Source: a phage
DNA: 44,581 bases
Strand: one strand, 5' to 3'
Sequence record: PZ445532.1
Part shown: piece after piece, positions 1-43,020 of the stretch
Layout of the letters: each line of letters starts with the position of its first letter
Numbering within the stretch: the first letter of the stretch is position 1
Notes under the pieces: generated by a model
Databases searched by the model: none
What the model was told of the DNA's origin: nothing
Seen by the model: only the letters and a program-made list of their open reading frames with translations
Position numbers and translations under genes: made by a program

Positions 1-1386
1 ATGCGTAACTATGCGGCGGAACACCGCGCACTTGAACGAGAGATCGCAAAGCGCAACCGACCTCCACGCCCAACGCGCGTTGCGCAGGCCGTCCGCCTGT
101 ACCAGCCTGATTGCCTTCCGCACCAAGTGGAACTACTGCGGGACACGAAGACTAAAATCCTCGGCCTGTGTTCTGGCTTCGGTGGTGGAAAGTCATGGGT
201 CGCGGCGCGTAAGGTCATCCAGCTTCTGACACTGAACCCTGGGCATGACGGCATCGTGACCGAGCCGACTATCCCACTCCTGGTTAAAATCATGTATCCG
301 GAATTGGAGAAGGCTTTCGACGAGGCTGGCTTCCGGTGGAAGTTCAACAAGCAGGACAAGATCTATAGCGTTCTGGTGAAAGGCAAATGGACCCGCGTTA
401 TCTGCGAGTCAATGGAGAACTACACCCGCCTAATCGGGGTTAACGCCGCGTGGATTGTTGCCGACGAGTTCGACACCACGAAGCAAGACGTCGCAATGGC
501 GGCTTATCACAAATTGCTCGGTCGTCTGCGTGCGGGCTTCGTCCGCCAGTTCGTCATAGTATCCACGCCTGAAGGCTTCCGGGCGATGTATCAAATTTTC
601 GAGGTGGAGAAGGATAGCCAAAAGCGCCTGATCCGGGCGAAGACCACCGACAACCACCATTTACCGGCAGACTTTATCGACACGCTGCGCAGTCAGTACC
701 CGGCTAACCTGATCGACGCGTACCTGAACGGCCTATTTGTTAACCTTACGTCGGGCGCGGTGTATAAGATGTTCAACCGAGAGGAGAACGCCAGCACCGA
801 AGAAGTACAACCGGAAGACACGCTGATTATCGGAATGGACTTTAACGTCACGAAAATGGCGGCGGTCGTGTACGTCAGACGGCAGCGAGTCGCCGAGAAC
901 AAGGAGTTCCGCGACGAGATTCACGCGGTGGATGAATTTGTGGACCTGTTTGATACCCCGGCTATGATTGAGGCGATCGAGGAGCGCTACCCCGATCATT
1001 GTGCTGCCGGTCGTGTTGTCGTTTACCCGGATAGCAGCGGAAAATCCCGCAAAACGGTCAACGCGTCGTCGTCCGATATCGCGCAACTGGAAGATGCGGG
1101 CTTCGAGGTGGAGTATGACAGTGTTAACCCGCCTGTGAAAGACCGATTGATCGCGATGAATACGATGATGTGCAACTCGAAGGGTGTGCGCCAGTATTTT
1201 GTCAACCTGGATAAATGCCCTACACTAGCGAAATGTCTGGAACAGCAGGTGTACGACCTGAAGAAAGGCGAGCCGGATAAAACTGCCGGTGTGGACCACA
1301 TGAATGACGCAGCGGGCTACCCTATTGCGCACTTGTTCCCTGTGATTCGTCCGATCGCCGTTGTTCCTACCGTAGATTTCTACTAA
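1..1386 (+). CDS. terminase large subunit
   Basis: 461-aa ORF. Walker A-like GFGGGKSW and Walker B-like WIVADEFD motifs. Lies between the small-terminase candidate (which wraps across the window end) and the portal gene. Confidence 0.88.
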   Translation: MRNYAAEHRALEREIAKRNRPPRPTRVAQAVRLYQPDCLPHQVELLRDTKTKILGLCSGFGGGKSWVAARKVIQLLTLNPGHDGIVTEPTIPLLVKIMYPELEKAFDEAGFRWKFNKQDKIYSVLVKGKWTRVICESMENYTRLIGVNAAWIVADEFDTTKQDVAMAAYHKLLGRLRAGFVRQFVIVSTPEGFRAMYQIFEVEKDSQKRLIRAKTTDNHHLPADFIDTLRSQYPANLIDAYLNGLFVNLTSGAVYKMFNREENASTEEVQPEDTLIIGMDFNVTKMAAVVYVRRQRVAENKEFRDEIHAVDEFVDLFDTPAMIEAIEERYPDHCAAGRVVVYPDSSGKSRKTVNASSSDIAQLEDAGFEVEYDSVNPPVKDRLIAMNTMMCNSKGVRQYFVNLDKCPTLAKCLEQQVYDLKKGEPDKTAGVDHMNDAAGYPIAHLFPVIRPIAVVPTVDFY

Positions 1387-5818: not shown

Positions 5819-5960
5819 TTCCTCATGTTGGTGTGCAACCAATATACTGCAACCAACATACGCAATGCAAGCGAATTTTGCGATTATTTTTATCACTGAT
5901 AATATTAGAGGCGTGAAGTCGAGCGGGTGGCCCGCTCTGCCACAATCCCAGGGGGATAGC

Positions 5961-9955: not shown

Positions 9956-10681
9956 ATGGGTTATCAACTTCCTAACGGATCAAGCGTCCAGATTGGGTCC
10001 GTACTGGGCAACGGCATCGCTGTTACGGCAGCTACCAACGCCGCCGCGTCGATCTCTGATCTTACGAAAGGTTGCGTTATCACCTGCGCGGCTTCTCATG
10101 GCCTGCGAGTTGGTGACGTGGTTATGTTCACTAAAACCCCGTGGGTCCGTGCGTTGAACCGCGCGTTTATCGTGGGTAAAGTGGCGACTAACGACGTTAC
10201 ACTGGCGCGCTTCGATACTAAAGACGTCACCAAATACCCTACCGGCGCTTTCAGCGTAGGCACACCGGGTGAGGTGGTGAAGGTGTCGAGCTTTGTCGAC
10301 TTCCCGTATATCACTAACGTTGCTGTGTCGGGTGGCGATCAGCAGACTACTACCTTCCAGCCGTTGCAGGTGAATACCGCGATTAGTCTGAACACCACGA
10401 AAAACCCGTTGGTCCAGACCTACACTTTCACCCACGACGAAGAAGACCCGATCCGCCCGATTCTGGAAGACCTGGACGACACACAGAAAACCACTGTGAT
10501 TAAGTTCACTAACCCGGCAGCGGCGAGCGGCAAAGGTGAGATCCGCATTTACCCGGCTAAGGTGTCTTTCCGGAAGATTCCATCGTCTGAAGTAAACAAC
10601 GTGGAAACGGTGGAGTCCACTCTGACCATGCAGTCTGATATGGTTATCTACCGTAAGGATCTGGTCGAGGCATTGTCTTGA
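9956..10681 (+). CDS. major tail (tube) protein
   Basis: 241-aa ORF followed by a strong terminator and then the chaperone and tape-measure genes. Candidate promoter upstream (TTGGCG-17-TATCAT, about 9901..9930). Confidence 0.65.
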   Translation: MGYQLPNGSSVQIGSVLGNGIAVTAATNAAASISDLTKGCVITCAASHGLRVGDVVMFTKTPWVRALNRAFIVGKVATNDVTLARFDTKDVTKYPTGAFSVGTPGEVVKVSSFVDFPYITNVAVSGGDQQTTTFQPLQVNTAISLNTTKNPLVQTYTFTHDEEDPIRPILEDLDDTQKTTVIKFTNPAAASGKGEIRIYPAKVSFRKIPSSEVNNVETVESTLTMQSDMVIYRKDLVEALS

Positions 10682-10735: not shown

Positions 10736-11113
10736 TTGGAGAATACTACAATGGCTAAAGCACCACTCTTTACACTTGACCCTAAGCCTACCTTTAAGCT
10801 GCCGATTGAGATCCCGCGCCCAGGCGAAAACGAACCGGGCAAAATGACGTTTACCGTGCGCCACCGTCCGATCGACGAGTTTTCGCAGACCATGCAGGAT
10901 ACTGAGCGCAAGCTGTCGGAATATGACGACAACGACCCGGAAGGCTTTAACGTTATGGTCGAGGCCATAATGCACGTCGCTGAAGGCTGGAATCTGCCAG
11001 ATGAATTTAACGCGGAGAACGTCCGCCGCCTGGTGGTTAACTACCCTCGAGCGTTCGGTGTGTTCCACACGTCGTACTATCTCGAATTGATGGGGTTGCG
11101 TGAAAAAAACTAA
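10736..11113 (+). CDS. tail assembly chaperone (gpG-like)
   Basis: 125-aa acidic ORF two genes upstream of the tape measure. Ends REKN* on the slippery run GAAAAAAAC. Confidence 0.7.
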   Translation: MENTTMAKAPLFTLDPKPTFKLPIEIPRPGENEPGKMTFTVRHRPIDEFSQTMQDTERKLSEYDDNDPEGFNVMVEAIMHVAEGWNLPDEFNAENVRRLVVNYPRAFGVFHTSYYLELMGLREKN

Positions 11114-11427
11114 TTGAGGCGGCGCGACGCTTTTATGGCCCGCCGCCACCCTCCGAAGATTTAGCCGCGAGTTTATGGGGAGCGACCCCTGAAGACGTTT
11201 GCCCCCCGGTTGCACTATGGCCCGACAACGCGAAGGTAGTCGCAGTCTTCACAGATTGCTCCACGCAATGGCGCACCGGATTCGGTGGCGCATACGGCAT
11301 CGACTACGGCGTACTGGAATGGCTATTTAAGATGCACGGCATCGAAAACGCACAACGTGCGTTTAAAGATATCAAGCTAATGGAACGCGTTGCGCTGGAT
11401 GAAATGGCGCGGCAGAACCCCGCATAA
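10736..11427 (+). CDS. tail assembly chaperone, -1 frameshift fusion product (gpGT-like)
   Basis: Heptamer A_AAA_AAC at 11104..11110 sits just before the zero-frame stop. The -1 frame is open for 108 codons (LIEAARRFYGPPPP...ARQNPA*) to 11427 and has no start codon of its own. Confidence 0.6.
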
Positions 11428-11429
11428 CG

Positions 11430-11742
11430 AAGCGGGACAGGCGGGACGTCCCGTTTTGTCCCGCACCTCTAAAACTGCATATTTACCCACTTACATTGCA
11501 TAAATTAAAAGCGGGACAGGGTGCTGTCCCGATCTATCCCACCCTCAAAATGTGAATATCTATTCTGTTTTCGTGCATAAAGTAAGCGGGACAAAAAGCG
11601 GGACAAACAGGAGGCGGGACAAAGCGGGACAGCACCCTGTCCCCGCCAGTGCTGCCGCGGGTTTTAGCCGATCGGGACAGGCGGGACAAAGCCCAGTCTT
11701 TCAGACTAGACGGGGGTCAATGGCCCCCCTCGTCTGAGACTG
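11430..11742. repeat. non-coding module: GCGGGACA(G) repeat array, inverted repeats and 51-bp conserved hairpin element (copy A)
   Basis: At least 8 copies of GCGGGACA in a 380-bp gap, several paired with CTGTCCC as hairpins. Ends with a 51-bp sequence (11692..11742) identical to 39840..39890. Confidence 0.85.
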
Positions 11743-11810
11743 AATAAGGTTTGTTTTAAATTCGCTGATACAATAACCGACGGCAACTGCATAAAAAGGG
11801 GGACTGCATA

Positions 11811-14453
11811 ATGGCAGATCAGGCAGCGGGCATCACGCTCAAGGCGGATGTTGCACAAATCAGAACGGCGAATACTGTACTTGATTCATTCGCACAGAAA
11901 TCTGAGAACACAGAACAGAAAGTAAAGAAATTAAACGACACCCTCGGCAAGTCGAAAAAGGTTACTGGCGACGCCGCGGGCGGAATGGAAAAGTTAGCGA
12001 CTGAATCGCAGCGTGCCGCCGATGGCATGACGAAACAAGAGCGACTCGCCAGCCGACTAGGCATGTCAACCAAAAACCTGGGATTCGCATCGCGGAACGC
12101 GGCATTCCAGTTACAGGATATCGCGGTTACGCTTGAGATGGGTATGCCGGTGCACCGCGTTATGCTTCAGCAGCTACCACAGCTAACCGGCGCATTTGGC
12201 GGACTGGGTAACACGCTGCGATATGTTGCAGGCTTCCTCGGCCCAGTAGGGATCGGACTTGCTGCCGTAACGGCGACGTTAGGCGTGGGTGTGGCAATTA
12301 CGTCACGGGCAGAGAACCAAGTAGCCGCGCTTAATAAGACGCTGGCGCTGTCCGGTAATATCTCCGGCCTCACAGCTAACCAGATCCTGGTGCTGTCCGA
12401 GAACGCCGAGCGCATGGGCGGGTCTTTTCGCAAGACGCGTGACACAATCCAGGCACTGGCGGCGGCTGGTGTGAAAGCGGGTGGTGACTTCGGCGCATTG
12501 GCTAAGGTAGTTAATGACTTTGCGAAGGTGTCCAGCCAGCCGATCGAGGATGTGGTGGCGGCGGTGGCTAAGCTGTCAACCGACCCCGTTGGCGGACTGC
12601 GTGCGCTGGCGGATAAGTATCACGTCGTAAACGAAGCGCAGATCCAGCAGGTACAGTCGCTCGTTGATGCGGGTCGTGAGACAGACGCAGTTGCGTTGGC
12701 TAACAAAACAGCCGCTGCGTCGTTCACCAGCATGACCAATGAAATCAAGTCCAACATGGGTACGCTTGAGCGGTCGATGAACGTCGTCACATCGGCAGCT
12801 AAATCTATGTGGGATGCAATCCTGGATGTGGGCCGCGCGCAGTCCTCGAATGAGTCAGAGATGAAAGCGCGTGAGTCATTGCAGCGCATGACCACGGCTT
12901 ATTATGCCGAGATGAAAGCGGTAAACGCTGCCGGTGGGGTAATGACTGAAGCGCAGAAAGCACGTATTAACATGCTTTACAGCGAACTGGTCGCCCAGGA
13001 AAAAGTGGTGGCGTCGCTCACCCTGCGCAACCGCGCCGAGCGTGACAACGCCCGCGCCGCGGATGAATCAGCAAAGGCGAACGAGGAGGCCAACCGCACT
13101 GCCCGTGACCGCGCCGCGTTCGAGAAGGAATACGCCACCAACGCTAAGAAGCGCGCCGACGAGATCGCCCGCCTCAATTTGCTGAATAAGCGCGGCGTTA
13201 TTGATGAGAAAGAACTAGCCGAGGCGGTTAAGCAGGTCAACGAGCGCTACAAAGACCCCGCCCCGAAGAAGGCCGCGGCTGTTCGCGTGGATGCCGGTAT
13301 GAAAATGCTGGAAGTCGCACGGAGCGAACTGGCCCAGCTTCGAGAATCCGGCAAGCAGATCGAAGCCAACGCGTCTACGCAGACCCGCACGCAACGCGCT
13401 CAAGCGGCCTTAAACAAGCTGATCGCCGACAATGAGCAGTTAATCGCTGCGAGCAAAGAAAGAGCGCTAACGGCAGCAGAAAAGCAGCAATTAGTCGAGT
13501 TCGGGCGCGTGAAGGAAGTCCGCGAGCAGATCGTCGAAGAAGCCAAATTGCTGGATGCGAAAGAGCAGCAGGTTAAGGCGCACGCGCAGATCGATGCCTT
13601 CGTTAAGAACCAGAACGCCGAACTAAAAGCCACCGCCGCGGGGTATGCGCTTTCCACTCGCGAAGCGGCAAACCTGCGCGAAGAATTGCAGCTAATTGAC
13701 CGCCTGAAGCGGGTTGGCGCTAACGATACCGATATTGACAAGGCGGTGTCTAAGCTGCGCGAAGTGCAGGAAGCACAGACCGGCGCTAACGCCTCGCTAT
13801 GGGATGGCTTCAGCCGCGGGCTTAAGGATAGCGTGGATGAAATGGGTAACGGATATACGCAGATGGCGACGCTAACGAAATTCACGTTCAGCGCTATGCA
13901 AGACACGATGAACGAGTTTTTCGAGACTGGCAAGCTGAACGCAAAGGATATGGTTAAATCCATCCTGAGCGAACTAATCAAGCTGGCTACCTCGCAGGCG
14001 TTCAAGTCCATCGTTAGCGCTTTCGGTGGCGACGGCGGCAAAAACGGATTGTTCGGCGCTATCTTCTCTGGCCTCACTAAGAATGCGGACGGCGGAGCGT
14101 ACGCAGGAGGCAATCTCGCGGCCTATTCGGGTAAAGTGGTAAGCCAGCCTACCTTTTTCAGTTATGGCGTCCAGGCGTTCGCTAAGGGCGCAGGATTGAT
14201 GGGGGAGGCCGGACCCGAGGCCATCATGCCACTGAAGCGCGGGCCGGACGGGAAACTGGGCGTTGCCGCGTCTGGCGCAGGTGGTGGTATGGTCGTGACG
14301 ACTAACGTTTACACGGGGACCGGTAAAACGGATACCAGTGTCAGCGGGCCGGACCCCCGTACTGCGCAGGCGTTCGGCAAGCAAATCACCGAGGCGGTGA
14401 AATCCGAGATCGTGAAGGCGACGAAACCGGGTGGTGTACTTTACAAACGATGA
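11811..14453 (+). CDS. tail tape measure protein
   Basis: 880-aa ORF, Ala/Gln/Lys-rich with long predicted helical segments and a glycine-rich C-terminal part. Canonical position. Confidence 0.9.
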   Translation: MADQAAGITLKADVAQIRTANTVLDSFAQKSENTEQKVKKLNDTLGKSKKVTGDAAGGMEKLATESQRAADGMTKQERLASRLGMSTKNLGFASRNAAFQLQDIAVTLEMGMPVHRVMLQQLPQLTGAFGGLGNTLRYVAGFLGPVGIGLAAVTATLGVGVAITSRAENQVAALNKTLALSGNISGLTANQILVLSENAERMGGSFRKTRDTIQALAAAGVKAGGDFGALAKVVNDFAKVSSQPIEDVVAAVAKLSTDPVGGLRALADKYHVVNEAQIQQVQSLVDAGRETDAVALANKTAAASFTSMTNEIKSNMGTLERSMNVVTSAAKSMWDAILDVGRAQSSNESEMKARESLQRMTTAYYAEMKAVNAAGGVMTEAQKARINMLYSELVAQEKVVASLTLRNRAERDNARAADESAKANEEANRTARDRAAFEKEYATNAKKRADEIARLNLLNKRGVIDEKELAEAVKQVNERYKDPAPKKAAAVRVDAGMKMLEVARSELAQLRESGKQIEANASTQTRTQRAQAALNKLIADNEQLIAASKERALTAAEKQQLVEFGRVKEVREQIVEEAKLLDAKEQQVKAHAQIDAFVKNQNAELKATAAGYALSTREAANLREELQLIDRLKRVGANDTDIDKAVSKLREVQEAQTGANASLWDGFSRGLKDSVDEMGNGYTQMATLTKFTFSAMQDTMNEFFETGKLNAKDMVKSILSELIKLATSQAFKSIVSAFGGDGGKNGLFGAIFSGLTKNADGGAYAGGNLAAYSGKVVSQPTFFSYGVQAFAKGAGLMGEAGPEAIMPLKRGPDGKLGVAASGAGGGMVVTTNVYTGTGKTDTSVSGPDPRTAQAFGKQITEAVKSEIVKATKPGGVLYKR

Positions 14454-29710: not shown

Positions 29711-29738
29711 AAATGGCGGGACAAGCCCGCCGTATTAA

Positions 29739-36968: not shown

Positions 36969-37298
36969 ATGAATATCAACGACGCAATCGAAATGTTAAC
37001 GAAGACTGTTTGCAGTGAGACAAGCCGGTCATGGGCGTATACCGATGCCGTGGGGGCGGTGCTATTTGAGATTGAACGTCTGCGCAGTGTAGAAAAAGAA
37101 TTACGCGCCAGGCTGGAATTGCTCAACGGTACGGCGGCGAGCAAGCTGCAGAAGCACAATGAAGAAATGGAAGAATACAAAAAGCAGGTTATACGTTTGC
37201 GCGCCGAGGGAAAATCCTGGGCGATGATTGCCGAGTTGACTGGGATTAATCAGAGCACAGTGCGCTCCTGGGTACGCAATAATAAAACTTCTAAGTAA
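36969..37298 (+). CDS. HTH DNA-binding protein (putative transcriptional regulator)
   Basis: 109 aa. C-terminal helix-turn-helix-like KSWAMIAELTGINQSTVRSWVRN. Confidence 0.6.
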   Translation: MNINDAIEMLTKTVCSETSRSWAYTDAVGAVLFEIERLRSVEKELRARLELLNGTAASKLQKHNEEMEEYKKQVIRLRAEGKSWAMIAELTGINQSTVRSWVRNNKTSK

Positions 37299-37308
37299 GG
37301 CCACGGCA

Positions 37309-39573
37309 ATGAGCTTAATTAAATTCGCTGTAACAAGGCCCGCTAAAAAAGGCGAAAAAGCCAGGGCGGAAAACTTCCAGATGACCACCGATGAATTTTT
37401 CGAATTTATCAAAGATGCGAAAGAAATATCCTCGGTGCACATCAACAAGACGGAAGATAAAGCCGAGTATGCGCGCCGCAAGCGTAAGGCCGACGGCATC
37501 GTGGCGTATACCAGTGACGGATTGCGTCGTAAGACCAGTGCGGTGGACCGCTCGATCCTGTTCTTCGATATTGACCGCACCGACACCCGCACCCTACGCC
37601 GCTGCCGTAAGGCGTTCACTGACGCGGGGCTGGAACACGTATTCCACACCACAACCGGCGACCGTCACCCATTGAAAGGCGGCACGCGTTGCGCTCGATT
37701 CCTGGTGCTCACTGACAAGCCTGTACCGGCTGAAGACCTGGGCCGCGTCCAGTATGCACTATTACACCAACTGGGTCTGTCAGATGTGGACTTCGACGAT
37801 TGCACGAAAGACACAAACCGCCTGATGTACCTGCCACACCAGCAGTCTGTTATTAAGTGCCACTATGGCAAGCGCGCACGCGTACGTCGTCTGCTCCGCC
37901 TGGCTGACAAGCTGGGAGTTGAGAAAGAGGAAGTCCGTCGCGAACTGACCCCGGGCGACGACGCAGTGGCAGACGGCATTCTGGACTGGTGCTTCCAGGC
38001 AGGATTCGAGGAGTTATCTTCCGGGCGGGGCTATGAAGTGCCGTGCCCGAACGAACATCTGCACAGCGGCGAAGGGTCCACCGCTATTATGGTCAAGGAT
38101 GGCGAGATCCGTTTCAAGTGTATGCACACCGGCAACGAGTGTTGCTCGGAACTGAATAGACACCAGCACCTGGCGCTGCGTCTTATCGGGATCCCGGACC
38201 ACCTGAACGTCGAGCCACACAATATGTCCCGTAAGCAAATCGCCGCCATCCTTCCGGGGCTGGACGACGAGGAAGTCGAATCCTTATATGAACATATTGT
38301 TGATGCGGTTGGCGACGGCGAAGAATACGGCGTGTGCACCGATGCGGATCTGGATAACGAGCCGGTTGCGCTGTTCAGTAAGCACGACCCGATTATCGAG
38401 GGGTTGATTAACTTTAAATCGACCTGGTACATGGCGGGTGAGTCGAATATCGGTAAGTCTTTCTACGTGCTGGGCCAGATGGGCGCGGTTGCCGCGGGTA
38501 TTCCGTTTGGTGGCGCGAAGGTCGTCCAGTCTCATTGCTTCTATTTCGACGCGGAAGGTGGCGAAGCCTCCAACCAGCGTAAAGAAGCATTGCAGATTAA
38601 ATATGAGCACGACCTGGACAAGCTGCACATTATCGATCTGCAGTCACGCGGCTGGGATATCACCAGCAAATCGGGCTTGCGCGAAGTTATCAGCTTTATC
38701 AACCGCACCGCTAACGGCGAACCGGTTGGCCTGGTGGCGTTCGACTCACTAAACCAGACTGTTGCGTTGCGGTCCGCCGAGGCTAAACCGTTCGACGAGA
38801 ACAACGCCAGCGATATGGGTGAAGTGGTCAAAGCGCTGAAGGCCATCGCGGAAAATACAGGTGGCAGTGCGGGCGTCATCCACCACCCGGCTAAAGGTGC
38901 AAACGGCAGCAGAACGCCACGCGGGTCCGGCGCGCTGCATGGTGCTGTCGATTCTGCGTTCTTCCTGGAACAGCCGGACGACAACCAGCCCGGACAATTG
39001 AACCTGTATCACGAAAAGTCACGTAACGGCATCAAGCAAGCGCCGCGCGGCTTCGTCCTGCTCAAGTGCAAGGTGAAGGTGGATCTCCGCAAGTCAGAAG
39101 CGTTCGAGGCGCACCAGTCCACCAGCACCGGGCCAGACTTCGGCGACGTGGTTGCCGGATGGGACGTCAAGCCGATTGCCTCCACGCCACGCGACGAGAC
39201 TCTCTACCTCGTACCGGTTGCCCTGGCACCGTTCGCTATTGAACAGGCGAAGGCGGCGGGCAAGGCCGCGGTTAAGGAAGAGAACACCGCCGGACCGCGC
39301 AACGAAAAAGAGAAAGTGCTTTATGCGGCACTGGAAAAACTGATGGAAGATAACCCGTACCATACTGGATTCAGTAAATCGGCAATTGTCCGCCAGGCGG
39401 GACTCGCAAAAGGTGGCACTTCGACGAAGGCAATCGACGATATGGTGGAGCGCGGGGTAATAGGTTTTTATACAGATCCGCACACCGGGGCCATCTATGG
39501 GTCTTCTAATTTGGTCATCAAATCGGATATCCCTATCACGCTTTCCGCGACCGATGACGATTTAAAAGATTAA
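37309..39573 (+). CDS. DNA primase-helicase (primase domain fused to RecA-like NTPase)
   Basis: 754 aa. Cys/His-rich segment CPNEHLHSGEG...FKCMHTGNECC. Walker A GESNIGKS and Walker B-like LVAFDSLNQ in the C-terminal half. Confidence 0.8.
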   Translation: MSLIKFAVTRPAKKGEKARAENFQMTTDEFFEFIKDAKEISSVHINKTEDKAEYARRKRKADGIVAYTSDGLRRKTSAVDRSILFFDIDRTDTRTLRRCRKAFTDAGLEHVFHTTTGDRHPLKGGTRCARFLVLTDKPVPAEDLGRVQYALLHQLGLSDVDFDDCTKDTNRLMYLPHQQSVIKCHYGKRARVRRLLRLADKLGVEKEEVRRELTPGDDAVADGILDWCFQAGFEELSSGRGYEVPCPNEHLHSGEGSTAIMVKDGEIRFKCMHTGNECCSELNRHQHLALRLIGIPDHLNVEPHNMSRKQIAAILPGLDDEEVESLYEHIVDAVGDGEEYGVCTDADLDNEPVALFSKHDPIIEGLINFKSTWYMAGESNIGKSFYVLGQMGAVAAGIPFGGAKVVQSHCFYFDAEGGEASNQRKEALQIKYEHDLDKLHIIDLQSRGWDITSKSGLREVISFINRTANGEPVGLVAFDSLNQTVALRSAEAKPFDENNASDMGEVVKALKAIAENTGGSAGVIHHPAKGANGSRTPRGSGALHGAVDSAFFLEQPDDNQPGQLNLYHEKSRNGIKQAPRGFVLLKCKVKVDLRKSEAFEAHQSTSTGPDFGDVVAGWDVKPIASTPRDETLYLVPVALAPFAIEQAKAAGKAAVKEENTAGPRNEKEKVLYAALEKLMEDNPYHTGFSKSAIVRQAGLAKGGTSTKAIDDMVERGVIGFYTDPHTGAIYGSSNLVIKSDIPITLSATDDDLKD

Positions 39574-39690
39574 ATTCTGCGCGCATTGGTTGCCGATATG
39601 GTAATTCCCATATCGGTGAATGATTAAATTTTGCGCGCATTGGTTGCCATTTTGAGTGTTTTTACCTGGTCGTATTGGTTGCCGTGTAGT
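39574..39690. repeat. three direct repeats of GCGCATTGGTTGCC plus a perfect 9-bp inverted repeat
   Basis: TTGGTTGCC at 39586, 39640 and 39675. The first two copies sit in a 23-bp direct repeat TAAATT[CT]TGCGCGCATTGGTTGCC. Inverted repeat CCGATATGG-TAATTC-CCATATCGG at 39593..39616. Confidence 0.8.
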
Positions 39691-39724
39691 GTAAATATAG
39701 TGAATAGTTATGCAATAAAACTGC

Positions 39725-39890
39725 ATAAAGTAAGCGGGACAGAAAGCGGGACAGACCAGGGGCGGGACAAAGCGGGACAGCACCCCTGTCCCGCCCCGGA
39801 TGACGCGGCCTGGCGAGGAGCGGGACAGCGGGACAGCACCCCAGTCTTTCAGACTAGACGGGGGTCAATGGCCCCCCTCGTCTGAGACTG
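39725..39890. repeat. non-coding module: GCGGGACA(G) repeat array and 51-bp conserved hairpin element (copy B)
   Basis: AGCGGGACAG repeated at least 6 times. Hairpin GGGACAG-CACC-CCTGTCCC. The terminal 51 bp (39840..39890) are identical to 11692..11742. Confidence 0.85.
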
Positions 39891-40105
39891 CATAAAATCC
39901 AGGATGCACGACGCACGGCAGCATGATGCAAATTGCGGTCGTCGATGAACTAGGCAACCAATGCGAGTTGCAGAATGGTGGGTGGAAAATGCAGTTTGCA
40001 GTCACAGCAGATAGCGATCGACTTTTTCATGCGCGTGATTAATATTGGTTGCATTCGCCCTGGCACACTGCTATATTGGTTGCACACCAACATGAGGACT
40101 GAACA

Positions 40106-42300: not shown

Positions 42301-42542
42301 TTATCTCCGTCCTGTTGTTTGTTATCATAGGGGCTTCGTCCCTGTTTAACGTGTATGCGCCGTCCGTTCAGGATGGCATCTTAGGCCGGGTGCTGTATCT
42401 GTTAACGGCAATGATCTGTCTTATCGGATTGCTGCAAACAGGAGACGTATCGGATACCACCTGGACCGCGTTAATCTGGCTGTTTGCATTGCGCACACTG
42501 CGTAATGCTGTTTTAAATGGGGTAAAACATGCGATTCAGTGA
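42297..42542 (+). CDS. second holin/antiholin-like membrane protein
   Basis: 81 aa with hydrophobic helices. Start and stop overlap the neighbouring genes. Confidence 0.5.
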   Translation: MIISVLLFVIIGASSLFNVYAPSVQDGILGRVLYLLTAMICLIGLLQTGDVSDTTWTALIWLFALRTLRNAVLNGVKHAIQ

Positions 42543-43020
42543 TAACGGTCTACGATTTACGGCAGCATGGGAGGCTTTCAGCCCAGTGCCGTATTTCGCG
42601 ACCAAGAAAGAGCAGGCCCGCGGCCTGTACACCTGGGGTTATGGGCACACCGGCACTAATCCGCCACGAAGCATTACCCGTGCGGAAGCGCTGGAACTGC
42701 TCAAGCGAGATGTGGCGTATGCCGAGGACTGGGTGAACAAATACGCACATCCGAGCATTAACCAGGCGCAATTCGACGCGCTGGTGGACCTGGTAATCAA
42801 TGCCGGTCAGGGTCCGATCGTACCGGATGACGTCGCGAATGATTTCGACGATGCGGTCCGCCTGGGCGACTGGGCGAAGGTCCGTGCTACACTGCCGCAG
42901 TTCCGCAAGCAAGGCGGGGAAGTGCTTAAGGGTCTGGTGCGCCGTGCAATCGGTAGACAGGCGTTGTTTGATGGTAAGCAGTGGGACGTTGCCGAGAAAA
43001 TCGGGCGTAACGCAGCATAA
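42529..43020 (+). CDS. endolysin (GH24 lysozyme-like)
   Basis: 163 aa with the lysozyme-like block YTWGYGHTG and surrounding conserved acidic residues. Confidence 0.85.
   Translation: MRFSDNGLRFTAAWEAFSPVPYFATKKEQARGLYTWGYGHTGTNPPRSITRAEALELLKRDVAYAEDWVNKYAHPSINQAQFDALVDLVINAGQGPIVPDDVANDFDDAVRLGDWAKVRATLPQFRKQGGEVLKGLVRRAIGRQALFDGKQWDVAEKIGRNAA

What the first reader, a model, noticed from the sequence alone, without database searches (positions are those of the whole stretch)
39725..39890. Second copy of the GCGGGACA array and 51-bp hairpin element, downstream of the primase-helicase gene
This copy has the same architecture as 11430..11742, with at least 6 AGCGGGACAG units, the hairpin GGGACAG-CACC-CCTGTCCC and the identical 51-bp terminal element. 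It lies in a 530-bp non-coding region after the primase-helicase gene, which is a common place for phage replication origins. The two spurious ORFs in the track (11552..11737 and 39631..39885) share a C-terminus only because of this duplicated DNA.
Basis: seen in the sequence. Interest (0 to 1): 0.75.

Follow-up and report, generated by a model that had tools for sequence, protein, structure and literature searches.

The report
Probable iteron-type phage replication origin
A cluster of short DNA repeats plus a conserved hairpin just after a coliphage's primase-helicase gene is most likely where that enzyme binds to start copying the phage genome: a familiar kind of element, but not previously described for this phage group.

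Summary
The window is a complete Dhillonvirus (HK578-like) genome. GCGGGACA occurs 17 times against 2.1 expected, and 15 of these lie in two clusters. Each cluster ends in an identical 51-bp hairpin element (39840-39890 and 11692-11742). All 159 Dhillonvirus records carry the element, nearly always twice.

The copy after the primase-helicase gene is the ancestral one. Relatives whose primase-helicase is only 43-69% identical keep the same layout at the same place: an AT-rich leader, about 6 direct units plus an inverted unit, then two adjacent units and a terminal hairpin. Each lineage uses its own unit: CGGACAA, CCGACA, GGGGAGA, GTGGCAA, GTGCCAA, GGTGCCA or TTGCGAGT.

The unit type tracks the C-terminal winged-helix domain of the primase-helicase, not its core. 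Some cores are 96-99% identical while their C-terminal domains are 43-49% identical and their units differ.

Best reading (about 0.6): an iteron-type origin read by a self-loading primase-helicase. It works like SaPI Rep/ori, P4 alpha or RSF1010 oriV. The copy in the tail operon resembles SPP1 oriR.

No RNA family, promoter, intrinsic terminator or conserved ORF fits. Origin activity itself is untested.

The parts
37309..39573 (+). Primase-helicase gene (754 aa), the proposed initiator. It has a RepA/DnaB-like AAA_25 helicase core at residues 357-531.
   Evidence: Pfam AAA_25, E 2e-19. PHROG 3228 'replicative helicase-primase'. The weak best PDB sequence hit is RSF1010 RepA.
39310..39570 (+). 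C-terminal winged-helix domain (about residues 668-754), the proposed reader of the repeat unit.
   Evidence: The AF2 model with a 45-sequence MSA shows H1-b-H2-H3-wing at pLDDT 77-91. All Foldseek top hits are winged-helix DNA binders (MarR/PcaV, MepR, LexA DBD, H1, ORC WH), but E >= 3e-3. This domain diverges with the unit type while the core stays 96-99% identical.
39585..39683 (+). Three ATTGGTTGCC motifs (39585, 39639, 39674) upstream of the leader. This is the promoter-associated motif of this phage, not the iteron.
   Evidence: The same 9-mer sits at the -35 position of sigma70-like sites in many intergenic regions. Relatives carry ATGTTGGCTG at the same place.
39685..39733 (.). AT-rich leader (GC 0.30-0.35) with two 14-nt boxes 21 nt apart: GTGAATAGTTATGC at 39700-39713 and (A)CTGCATAAAGTAAGC at 39720-39735. 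Candidate DNA-unwinding region.
   Evidence: Composition profile. The boxes are conserved in phiEap-2, Cornellvirus and the 67-69% clade.
39734..39835 (+). Iteron array. Direct GCGGGACA units at 39734, 39746, 39762, 39772, 39820 and 39828, and an inverted unit at 39787-39794 that forms the GGGACAG/CTGTCCC hairpin.
   Evidence: Across 37 distinct Dhillonvirus copies, direct units are 0.92 conserved, spacers 0.76 and the inverted unit 0.66.
39840..39890 (.). 51-bp terminal hairpin element, identical to 11692-11742. It has an outer stem CAGTCT/AGACTG, a middle stem AGACG/CGTCT and an apical stem G5/C6 with loop TCAATGG. Proposed single-strand loading or priming hairpin of the origin.
   Evidence: Stems are 0.99 conserved and the loop 0.74. 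The structure is kept through compensatory changes across lineages, and in most lineages the apical part carries that lineage's inverted unit.
39914..39923 (+). CACGGCAGCA motif downstream of the hairpin, conserved as ACGGCA(A/G)CA in every lineage examined.
   Evidence: Function unknown.
40049..40077 (+). Promoter-like site TTGCAT-17 nt-TATATT for the downstream genes. It marks the right-hand limit of the module.
   Evidence: Read from the sequence. The consensus scan did not call it. Identity between cassette-swapped relatives returns here.
11430..11742 (+). Copy A, the duplicated module in the gap between the tail assembly chaperone and the tape measure gene. Units in both orientations lie at 11432-11531. 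An AT-rich leader follows at 11545-11585, then an array at 11586-11688 and the 51-bp hairpin at 11692-11742.
   Evidence: It is absent from phiEap-2. In most genomes checked its hairpin loop matches that of copy B in the same genome.

Best explanation
The region 39685-39890 is the ancestral replication origin of this Dhillonvirus. It comprises the AT-rich leader, the GCGGGACA array and the 51-bp hairpin, and it sits directly 3' of the gene for its initiator.

Proposed mechanism:
1. The C-terminal winged-helix domains of the hexameric primase-helicase bind the 7-8-bp iterons: about six direct units, plus an inverted unit in the array. In most related lineages a further inverted unit sits at the tip of the terminal hairpin; in this window that match is weak (5 of 7 bases).
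2. Binding melts the adjacent AT-rich leader, and the RepA/DnaB-like helicase loads itself.
3. Unwinding lets the conserved 51-bp palindrome fold as a single-strand hairpin. The hairpin serves as a loading or priming signal for the N-terminal primase domain.

Copy A (11430-11742) is a duplicate that the same protein binds. It acts either as a second origin or as a bound roadblock, as proposed for SPP1 oriR.

Shown:
- the repeats are real and conserved;
- the architecture is conserved in distant relatives;
- the unit co-varies with the C-terminal domain;
- that domain has a winged-helix fold.

Inferred:
- physical binding;
- melting;
- priming at the hairpin;
- origin activity;
- the role of copy A.
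For: - Clustering. Units cluster far beyond chance. Direct units are better conserved than spacers across 37 distinct copies, 0.92 against 0.76.
- Same place, different unit. Relatives with a 43-69% identical primase-helicase keep the leader, array and hairpin in the same place but use different units: CGGACAA, CCGACA, GGGGAGA, TTGCGAGT, GTGGCAA, GTGCCAA and GGTGCCA.
- Unit type follows the C-terminal domain, not the core. L039/L054 against L045/L048 have cores 96-98% identical, C-terminal domains 43-45% identical, and different units. L052 against L049/L050 have cores 98-99% identical and C-terminal domains 49% identical. Same-unit pairs keep similar C-terminal domains.
- Bounded cassette. 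The divergent DNA block starts at the domain boundary. In L052 against L050, identity returns to 88% at the next promoter.
The Cro-like HTH protein upstream is identical in lineages with three different units.
- Fold. The C-terminal domain models as a winged helix and matches only winged-helix DNA binders.
- AT-rich stretch. An AT-rich stretch abuts the GC-rich array. In relatives and in copy A, units flank this leader on both sides.
- Published systems with this logic. SaPI Rep/PriRep5 has a C-terminal WHD, 6-12 short iterons immediately after rep and an AT-rich centre (PMC9371898). RSF1010 has iterons, the RepA helicase and ssi hairpins for the primase (PMC8567376). pRN1 ORF904 has an essential stem-loop 3' of its gene (PMC4234260). 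SPP1 has oriL plus oriR in the late region (PMC6316719).
- Nothing else fits. No Rfam family, tRNA, consensus promoter, intrinsic terminator or conserved ORF explains the element.
Against: - No experimental or coverage data show initiation here.
- The C-terminal coding region and the array are adjacent. Part of the co-variation could therefore be plain linkage in mosaic recombination.
- Within the 67-69% clade, two CGGGACA phages share only 59% of the winged-helix segment, so the 'code' is loose.
- Foldseek E-values are weak, 3e-3 at best.
- The N-terminal 'primase' has no Pfam or PDB match. Its identity rests on PHROG naming alone.
- In copy B, iterons lie on only one side of the AT-rich leader.
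- Five related contigs with a similar C-terminal domain have no array within 2.5 kb.
- The near-total sequence conservation of the hairpin stems (0.99) is more than a generic hairpin needs and is not explained in detail.
- Both copies point in the direction of transcription, which an RNA-level role would also predict.
Confidence: 0.62

Rival explanations
1. The array is bound by the primase-helicase winged-helix domain but is not an origin. It would be an autoregulatory operator, a replication-fork or transcription roadblock, or a genome-organising site.
For: The same co-variation evidence applies. Copy A sits inside the late operon, where a bound roadblock is the published role proposed for SPP1 oriR. 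Copy B lies at the boundary between the early primase-helicase operon and the late genes.
Against: Known multi-iteron arrays with an adjacent AT-rich stretch right after an initiator-helicase gene are origins. No promoter of the primase-helicase gene lies here, because the array is 3' of the gene. This reading does not explain the conserved hairpin.
Confidence: 0.13
2. The element acts at the transcript level. It would be a structured leader or 3' element, such as a U-tract-less terminator at the early/late boundary, a processing site, or a nut/put-like antitermination signal, with the repeats read by an RNA-binding factor.
For: Both copies lie on the transcribed strand of the + strand gene series. 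The 181-nt region folds better than shuffles, z = -2.7. The terminal hairpin is kept through compensatory changes across lineages. In some relatives the hairpin is followed by TTTTATT (L045).
Against: No Rfam match. No terminator-like site on the + strand and no consensus promoter. The window's hairpin is followed by GCATAAAATCC, not by a U-tract. The small internal hairpin is poorly conserved, with its inverted unit at 0.66. In the TTGCGAGT lineage, units occur in both orientations, as expected for duplex DNA sites. In 9 of 12 lineages the minus-strand fold is the more stable one. Relatives have one copy, not a pair downstream of two promoters.
Confidence: 0.12
3. The region encodes a small non-coding RNA whose repeated motif titrates a host RNA-binding protein, a CsrB-like sponge for CsrA.
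For: The units of three lineages contain GGA: CGGGACA, CGGACAA and GGGGAGA. The layout is a multi-repeat one.
Against: The units GTGGCAA, GTGCCAA, GGTGCCA and TTGCGAGT lack GGA. A conserved host protein would not call for lineage-specific units that track a phage DNA-binding domain. No promoter or terminator brackets the region.
Confidence: 0.03
4. It is a selfish or slippage-generated repeat (MITE-like) with no function, copied to a second site by chance. The flanking ACTGCATAAA direct repeats suggested a target-site duplication.
For: A 10-bp direct repeat, ACTGCATAAA, flanks copy B at 39720 and 39887. There are two copies per genome.
Against: The module is fixed at the same position across genera with 43% identical flanking proteins. 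Its units are under stronger constraint than its spacers. The 5' 'TSD' is homologous to the second leader box GTGAATAAATAAGC of relatives, so it is part of the element. Copy A is flanked by GTGCATAAA and ACTGAATAAG, which do not match each other.
Confidence: 0.03

Closest known systems
SaPI Rep / PriRep5 and the SaPI ori (Staphylococcus pathogenicity islands)
   Same: An initiator-helicase, fused to a primase in PriRep5, with a C-terminal winged-helix domain. There are 6-12 short iterons immediately downstream of its ORF and an AT-rich region. Specificity is cognate between the C-terminal domain and the iterons. The helicase loads itself (PMC9371898).
   Different: SaPI Reps are AAA+ helicases with 3'-5' polarity. 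The helicase here has a RecA-like AAA_25 (RepA/DnaB-type) core. No sequence homology was detected. Units here are 7-8 bp rather than 5-6 bp. In copy B iterons lie on one side of the AT-rich stretch only. A conserved 51-bp hairpin is added.
IncQ plasmid RSF1010 oriV with RepC, RepA and RepB'
   Same: The helicase belongs to the RepA family (Pfam AAA_25; the weak best PDB hit is RepA 1g8y). The origin combines iterons, an AT-rich stretch and conserved hairpins that the plasmid primase uses as single-strand initiation sites (PMC8567376; PMC4234260).
   Different: In RSF1010 the three activities are separate proteins, the iterons are 20 bp, and there are two ssi hairpins on opposite strands. Here one polypeptide appears to carry all three functions and there is one palindromic hairpin. 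Use of the hairpin by the primase is only inferred.
Satellite phage P4 alpha protein with ori and crr
   Same: A primase-helicase with a C-terminal winged-helix origin-binding domain that reads octamer repeats at two separate loci (own knowledge; summarised in PMC4234260).
   Different: P4 alpha has a Toprim primase and an SF3 helicase. Whether copy A is needed in cis, as crr is, is unknown. Relatives manage with one locus.
Bacillus phage SPP1 oriL / oriR
   Same: Two origin-like sites of similar build (direct repeats plus an AT-rich DUE), one at the initiator gene and one interrupting the late virion-assembly genes. Protein bound at the late site is proposed to stall forks and trigger the theta-to-sigma switch (PMC6316719).
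   Different: The SPP1 initiator gp38 is a separate origin-binding protein that works with a loader and a DnaB-type helicase. There is no homology to the proteins here. oriL lies inside gene 38, not after it.
pRN1 ORF904 and related phage replication proteins
   Same: A primase + helicase + C-terminal winged-helix protein whose origin lies just 3' of its own gene and requires a conserved stem-loop. The same arrangement has been noted in some bacteriophages (PMC4234260).
   Different: pRN1 has a prim-pol and an SF3 helicase, a 100-bp stem-loop and no iterons. The element here has both iterons and a hairpin.

Membership tests
Iteron-type origin read by a self-loading initiator-helicase (SaPI Rep/ori type) | Array of short repeats immediately downstream of the initiator-helicase ORF | tested here: met
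   The first unit lies 161 bp after the stop codon. There are 7 units in 102 bp. Relatives have their arrays at the same position.
Iteron-type origin read by a self-loading initiator-helicase (SaPI Rep/ori type) | Initiator carries a C-terminal winged-helix DNA-binding domain | tested here: met
   The AF2 model shows H1-b-H2-H3-wing at pLDDT 77-91. All Foldseek hits are winged-helix DNA binders, but their E-values are weak.
Iteron-type origin read by a self-loading initiator-helicase (SaPI Rep/ori type) | Cognate specificity: the iteron sequence changes together with the C-terminal domain | tested here: met
   There are eight unit types. The C-terminal domain tracks the unit type while cores stay 96-99% identical. 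Caveat: the two are physically linked.
Iteron-type origin read by a self-loading initiator-helicase (SaPI Rep/ori type) | AT-rich region with iterons on both sides, in opposite orientations | tested here: inconclusive
   An AT-rich leader is present. Units flank it on both sides in copy A and in relatives, but only on one side in copy B.
Iteron-type origin read by a self-loading initiator-helicase (SaPI Rep/ori type) | Helicase of the SaPI Rep AAA+ clade with 3'-5' polarity | tested here: not met
   The core is Pfam AAA_25, RepA/DnaB-like. It has no sequence match to the solved Rep structures. So this element works like the SaPI system but is not a homologue of it.
Iteron-type origin read by a self-loading initiator-helicase (SaPI Rep/ori type) | Binding, melting and origin activity | not testable with these tools
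   This needs EMSA or footprinting, a plasmid replication assay, or marker-frequency analysis.
IncQ (RSF1010) oriV | RepA-family hexameric helicase | tested here: met
   Pfam AAA_25, E 2e-19. RepA 1g8y is the top PDB sequence hit, but at E 0.47.
IncQ (RSF1010) oriV | Separate RepC initiator binding 20-bp iterons | tested here: not met
IncQ (RSF1010) oriV | Conserved ssi hairpins used by the element's own primase | tested here: inconclusive
   There is one conserved hairpin, with stems 0.99 identical, and its structure is kept across lineages. Priming at it cannot be tested here. The primase domain has no Pfam or PDB match.
Intrinsic (rho-independent) terminator | GC-rich hairpin followed by a U-tract on the transcribed strand | tested here: not met
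   The scan finds none on the + strand in either copy. The hairpin is followed by GCATAAAATCC.
Known structured RNA families (Rfam 15) | Covariance-model match at the gathering score | tested here: not met
   There are 0 matches in the whole window. In E-value mode only chance miRNA hits appear, at E 0.26 and 4.8.
CsrB-like protein-sponge RNA | Many GGA motifs, as required for CsrA binding | tested here: not met
   The homologous arrays of related lineages use GTGGCAA, GTGCCAA, GGTGCCA or TTGCGAGT, none of which contains GGA.
nut/put-type antitermination sites | Paired sites just downstream of early promoters, with a sequence conserved for a conserved factor or for RNA polymerase | tested here: not met
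   Relatives have a single copy. No consensus promoter lies upstream. The unit sequence differs between lineages.

The most novel reading that the evidence does not exclude
These virulent enterobacterial siphophages (Dhillonvirus, Cornellvirus, phiEap-2-like) replicate with a single-polypeptide, self-loading initiator: a primase, a RecA-type RepA/DnaB-like helicase and a winged-helix domain. Its specificity module is exchanged as a cassette between otherwise near-identical phages. The cassette comprises the winged-helix domain, its 7-8-bp iterons, and a hairpin that in most lineages displays an inverted iteron at its tip. This exchange would create replicon specificity groups among lytic phages. 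In Dhillonvirus a second copy placed in the tail operon would act as an SPP1-oriR-like barrier or second origin. The helix-turn-helix of the reader domain shares the G[FY]SxS[DE]I[IV]K[IA]AGxxGG motif with TALE-like (BurrH) repeats, hinting at a possible evolutionary link.
Probability: 0.25. Interest if true: 0.65.

Novelty: new variant of a known kind. Interest (0 to 1): 0.45.

Why it matters
No replication origin has been described for Dhillonvirus or its Guernseyvirinae-like relatives in the literature I could search. These phages are common in E. coli collections such as BASEL and SECphi and are used in defence-system studies.

If the reading holds, it supplies three things. It gives a defined ori and its reader domain for these phages. 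It gives a natural set of at least eight matched pairs of winged-helix domain and iteron, which makes protein-DNA specificity and replicon compatibility in lytic phages directly testable. It also gives a second example, after SPP1, of an origin-like site placed inside the late structural operon. In addition, it is a practical handle for building phage-dependent amplifiable plasmids.

It is not a new principle. Iteron origins next to initiator genes are textbook biology.

Tried and rejected
- Rfam at gathering score found nothing, and in E-value mode only chance miRNA hits. ARAGORN found no tRNA or tmRNA.
- Consensus promoter and terminator scans of both copies and of two relatives found nothing on the + strand. 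They returned only weak minus-strand terminator-like hits made of the unit hairpins themselves.
- RNAalifold on a MAFFT alignment of terminal hairpins from four lineages failed because length differences misaligned the 3' halves. I compared the structures from individual folds instead.
- A single-sequence AF2 model of the C-terminal domain was too poor to use, pLDDT 42. It was repeated with an MSA.
- A homology search with the C-terminal 134 aa alone returned 2 fragments.
- A tblastn search of plasmids for an autonomous replicon with this gene found only one 44-kb record at 34% identity, which looks like a phage genome deposited as a plasmid (not checked), plus helicase-core-only matches.
- Target-site duplication idea: rejected, because the upstream ACTGCATAAA is the second leader box conserved in relatives.
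- CsrA-sponge idea: rejected because related lineages use units without GGA.
- Small HTH protein upstream as the unit reader: rejected, because it is identical in lineages with three different units.
- DnaA-box reading of the leader (TGTGAATAG against TGTGNAWAA): not pursued. The TGTG part varies (AGTG, AATG) while GAATAGTTATGC is the conserved part.
- 'Third copy' in some records: an assembly overlap, not biology.
- I tried to learn whether the 68%-identity lineage has a copy A. The tail-chaperone query did not reach that contig, so this is unresolved.
- Literature searches for this element in Dhillonvirus/HK578 found nothing.
Full report
**What the window is.** The 44,581-bp window is a complete genome of a Dhillonvirus, an HK578-like virulent siphophage of E. 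coli and Shigella. The 1-kb stretch around the finding matches 159 phage records; the best is Shigella phage StarDew at 94.6%.

Using the JL1 annotation and Pfam, the map is as follows.
- TerL is at 1-1386, followed by head and tail genes on the + strand.
- The tail tube gene is at 9956-10681.
- The tail assembly chaperone is at 10736-11113. Its -1 frame stays open to 11427.
- Copy A follows, then the tape measure gene at 11811-14453 and tail genes to about 23.7 kb.
- A block of replication genes lies on the minus strand from 23.8 to 36.8 kb.
- On the + strand again come a small HTH protein (36969-37298), the 754-aa primase-helicase (37309-39573), the finding, small genes, lysis genes and TerS.

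**Check of the observation.** GCGGGACA occurs 17 times against 2.14 expected, and 0 of 100 shuffles reach 17.
- Seven copies lie at 39734-39835, six direct and one inverted at 39787-39794.
- Eight copies lie at 11432-11688.
- The two regions align at 82% over about 260 bp, with the same unit spacing of 12/16/10.
- Both end in an identical 51-bp stretch, at 39840-39890 and 11692-11742.
- The gap between the primase-helicase stop and the next gene is 532 bp.
The stop-to-stop frames over the array differ between Dhillonviruses because of indels, so they are not genes.

**Conservation within the genus.** The 53-bp query around the hairpin is found in all 159 Dhillonvirus-like records at >=90% identity. 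There are 325 places in total, so nearly every genome has two. I compared 37 distinct copies, 17 of type A and 20 of type B.

| Part of the element | Fraction identical to the window's copy B |
|---|---|
| Direct CGGGACA units | 0.92 |
| Spacers between units | 0.76 |
| Inverted unit of the small hairpin | 0.66 |
| Stems of the 51-bp element | 0.99 |
| Apical loop | 0.74 |

So the direct units and the hairpin stems are under the tightest constraint. Pairing in the small internal hairpin is not.

The two copies in one genome usually carry the same loop variant.

| Genome | Loop in copy A and copy B |
|---|---|
| Window | TCAATGG in both |
| JL1 | TCTGTCA in both |
| rolling | TCAGTTGG in both |
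| Maverick | TCAACGG in both |
| bob | differs by one base between the copies |

This points to gene conversion or to co-selection. The 'third copy' reported for some records is a terminal overlap of the record inside copy A, that is, an assembly artefact.

**Which copy came first.** Enterobacter phage phiEap-2 and Cornellvirus PhiSTP1 have primase-helicases 43-44% identical to the window's. Directly after that gene's stop codon they carry a module with the same layout:
- a promoter-associated motif (ATGTTGGCTG, the counterpart of ATTGGTTGC);
- two 14-nt leader boxes 21 nt apart (GTGAATAGTTATGC ... GTGAATA(A/G)(A/T)TA...);
- about four direct units plus an inverted unit;
- a linker with a GGGTTT island;
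- two adjacent units;
- a long hairpin, followed by TGCATAA/TTATTCA.

In phiEap-2 this is the only cluster in the genome. Seven of its 13 CGGACAA sites lie in 39911-40062, and its chaperone/tape-measure junction is coding. The copy studied here is therefore the ancestral one, and 11430-11742 is a duplication specific to Dhillonvirus.

**The repeat unit is lineage-specific and follows the C-terminal domain.** I fetched 38 loci from IMG/VR with a primase-helicase alignment and four more from metagenome assemblies. Downstream of the gene the same architecture carries different units.

| Lineage | Unit |
|---|---|
| Dhillonvirus, and a lineage at 68% identity | CGGGACA |
| phiEap-2-like | CGGACAA |
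| L043 / L052 / L055 | CCGACA(A/G) |
| Cornellvirus | GGGGAGA |
| L093 / L095 | GTGGCAA |
| L094 | GTGCCAA |
| L096 | GGTGCCA |
| A group at 49% identity (both orientations, AT-rich spacers) | TTGCGAGT / ACTCGCAA |

Five contigs have no array within 2.5 kb.

I compared the protein core (residues 1-640) with the last about 87 residues.
- L039/L054 (GGGGAGA) against L045/L048 (CGGACAA): core 96-98% identical, C-terminus 43-45%.
- L052 (CCGACA) against L049/L050 (CGGACAA): core 98-99% identical, C-terminus 49%.
- L043 against L055 (both CCGACA): core 78%, C-terminus 80%.

At the DNA level the divergent block begins at the start of the C-terminal domain. It runs through the array and the hairpin. 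In L052 against L050, identity is back to 88% at the next promoter.

Inside this block the leader boxes stay almost identical while units on both sides of them change. The small Cro-like HTH protein encoded just upstream is identical in lineages with three different units, so it is not the unit reader.

Within the 67-69% clade the correlation is looser but points the same way.
- The GTGGCAA pair shares 82% of the winged-helix segment.
- Pairs with different units share 43-61%.
- The two CGGGACA lineages share only 59% of the segment, but both have KGGT.T.AI at the start of helix 3.

**What the C-terminal domain is.** With a 45-sequence alignment, AlphaFold gives H1-strand-H2-H3-beta-hairpin at pLDDT 77-91 over residues 40-120 of the fragment. 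All Foldseek hits in the PDB are winged-helix DNA-binding domains: PcaV, MepR and MarR, the LexA DNA-binding domain, histone H1 and ORC winged helices. Their E-values are weak, 3e-3 at best.

The helicase core is Pfam AAA_25, and its weak best PDB sequence hit is RSF1010 RepA. The N-terminal 340 residues match nothing in Pfam or the PDB, so 'primase' rests on PHROG naming only.

**The terminal hairpin.** The 51-bp element folds as a three-part hairpin. Across lineages the small 5' stem changes in a fully compensatory way.

| Lineage | 5' stem |
|---|---|
| Dhillonvirus, phiEap-2 | AGTCT / AGACT |
| CCGACA group | CATC / GATG |
| Cornellvirus | CTCCT / AGGAG |

Its loop is 3 or 4 nt long. A G-rich/C-rich apical stem is always present.

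In most lineages the apical loop and 3' arm contain the reverse complement of that lineage's own unit.

| Lineage | Apical sequence |
|---|---|
| CCGACA group | TCTGTCGGA |
| phiEap-2 | TCTGTCCGA |
| L045 | TTGTCC |
| L030 | TTGTCCCC |
| L093 | TTTGGCCAC |
| L094 | CTTGCAC |

The match is weak in the window itself (TGGCCCC against TGTCCCG). The minus-strand fold is 2-7 kcal/mol more stable than the plus-strand fold in 9 of 12 lineages. This argues against a plus-strand RNA and is compatible with a single-stranded DNA hairpin.

There is no U-tract after the hairpin, no consensus promoter before the array, and no Rfam match.

**Mechanism proposed.** A 49-bp AT-rich leader (GC 0.30-0.35) abuts a GC-rich array (GC 0.65-0.78).

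The most economical reading is an iteron-type origin. The winged-helix domains of the hexameric primase-helicase bind the units. The AT-rich leader melts, and the RepA/DnaB-like ring loads itself. The exposed palindrome then folds and serves as a loading or priming signal.

Every step after 'the units co-vary with a winged-helix domain' is inference. Four published systems support the logic.
- SaPI Rep/PriRep5 have a C-terminal winged-helix domain that reads 6-12 short iterons placed immediately after the rep ORF, around an AT-rich centre, and they load themselves (PMC9371898).
- RSF1010 combines iterons, the RepA helicase and the ssiA/ssiB hairpins that its primase needs (PMC8567376).
- pRN1 ORF904 (primase + helicase + winged helix) needs a stem-loop just 3' of its gene, and a similar stem-loop lies 3' of the replication-protein gene in some phages (PMC4234260).
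- SPP1 has a second origin-like site, oriR, inside the late assembly genes. The bound initiator there is proposed to stall forks and trigger the switch to concatemer synthesis (PMC6316719). This is a ready model for copy A.

**Membership versus analogy.** The element works like these systems but is not a homologue of them. The helicase here is RecA-type (AAA_25), not the AAA+ helicase of SaPI Rep or the SF3 helicase of pRN1 ORF904 and, from my own knowledge, P4 alpha. The iterons are far shorter than RSF1010's. That combination, plus the iteron-bearing hairpin and the duplicated copy in the tail operon, is why I rate it a new variant of a known kind.

**Rivals.**
- A non-origin role for the same protein-DNA interaction (operator, roadblock) cannot be excluded, about 0.13.
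- A transcript-level role, about 0.12, is favoured by the shared orientation with transcription and by the conserved hairpin. It is weakened by the lack of promoter, terminator or Rfam signals, by the poor conservation of the small hairpin, by units in both orientations in one lineage, and by the strand asymmetry of folding.
- A CsrB-like sponge is rejected, because four lineages use units without GGA.
- A MITE-like repeat is rejected by positional conservation across genera and by unit-level constraint.

**Caveats.**
- The C-terminal coding region and the array are neighbours, so mosaic recombination alone produces some co-variation. The bounded cassette in L052/L050 and the repeated independent pairings argue for co-adaptation but do not prove it.
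- Structural matches are weak.
- No data on binding, replication intermediates or transcripts were available.
- The searchable literature holds nothing on this element.

Noticed in passing
window 5835(-), 5849(-), 21948(-), 24999(+), 26672(-), 29969(-), 36771(+), 39585, 39639, 39674, 39954(-), 40044, 40075, 40609(-), 43493(-): The motif (A)TTGGTTGC recurs in intergenic regions. Its TTGC(A/T/C)N end usually sits 17 nt upstream of a TATATT/TATAGT-like hexamer. It looks like the phage's own promoter or regulator signature. Relatives carry ATGTTGGCTG at the same places. A near-identical module, TATATTGGTTGCACACCAACATGAGGA, precedes two different genes, at 5842(-) and 40072(+).
   Followed up: partly
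window 39394-39480 (primase-helicase residues about 696-724): A profile of the C-terminal domains matches the TALE-like repeat protein BurrH (PDB 4cja/4cj9) with a summed E of 3e-31. This comes from about 20 individually weak repeat matches, with per-repeat independent E-values (i-Evalue) from about 1 to several thousand. The shared motif is G[FY]SxS[DE]I[IV]K[IA]AGxxGG, covering helix 2, the turn and the start of helix 3. It could be a generic helix-turn-helix resemblance or a real link to TALE-like repeats.
   Followed up: partly
window 11104-11427 and 11428-11810: The tail assembly chaperone has a -1 frame open to 11427, the usual G/GT frameshift product. It is followed by an unusual 380-bp non-coding gap before the tape measure gene. 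This gap is where copy A sits.
   Followed up: partly
window 11786-11811: ACTGCATAA occurs twice, 17 nt apart, at 11786 and 11803. The second overlaps the tape measure start codon, and the sequence AAGGGGG, read here as the likely ribosome-binding site, lies between them. The same 9-mer flanks the array-hairpin unit at 39720 and 39887. A possible translational or DNA-binding site.
   Followed up: no
window 39914-39923; L014, L015, L031, L034 and other loci downstream of the hairpin: A short motif, ACGGCA(A/G)CA, lies 20-40 nt after the terminal hairpin in every lineage. This includes the TTGCGAGT group, which lacks the leader boxes. Function unknown.
   Followed up: no
L056 (Maverick NC_073077.1) 1-127 and 42498-42624; also records HH3, PTXU06, Zar3M, PNS1: Several deposited Dhillonvirus records begin or end at or inside this repeat, and Maverick has a roughly 125-bp (not counted exactly) overlap of its two ends within copy A. 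Most likely short-read assemblies break or circularise at the duplicated 170-bp element. These are probably not physical genome ends.
   Followed up: partly
L040, L041, L042, L046, L047 (IMG/VR contigs): These relatives have a primase-helicase with a similar C-terminal domain (GPGGGRRPAL). Downstream of the gene they have terminators and convergent genes, and no array within 2.5 kb. Their binding sites, if any, must lie elsewhere.
   Followed up: partly
L054, L045, L048, L055 upstream of the primase-helicase: An identical Cro-like HTH protein (MKPQPTEFSTRLRETMRAKGIMQIEMAQRCGVTQSAISHLCCGR...) is encoded upstream in lineages with three different iteron types. In a Kagunavirus-like phage (L016), TGTGAATAGT lies in the spacer of a perfect TTGACA-17-TATAGT promoter next to a gene that looks like a divergently transcribed repressor (not annotated as one). 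The conserved leader boxes may therefore be an operator for such a protein.
   Followed up: no
window 138-145 and 29716-29723: Two isolated GCGGGACA copies lie outside the clusters, one inside TerL and one near an intergenic site. The number matches chance expectation (about 2).
   Followed up: no
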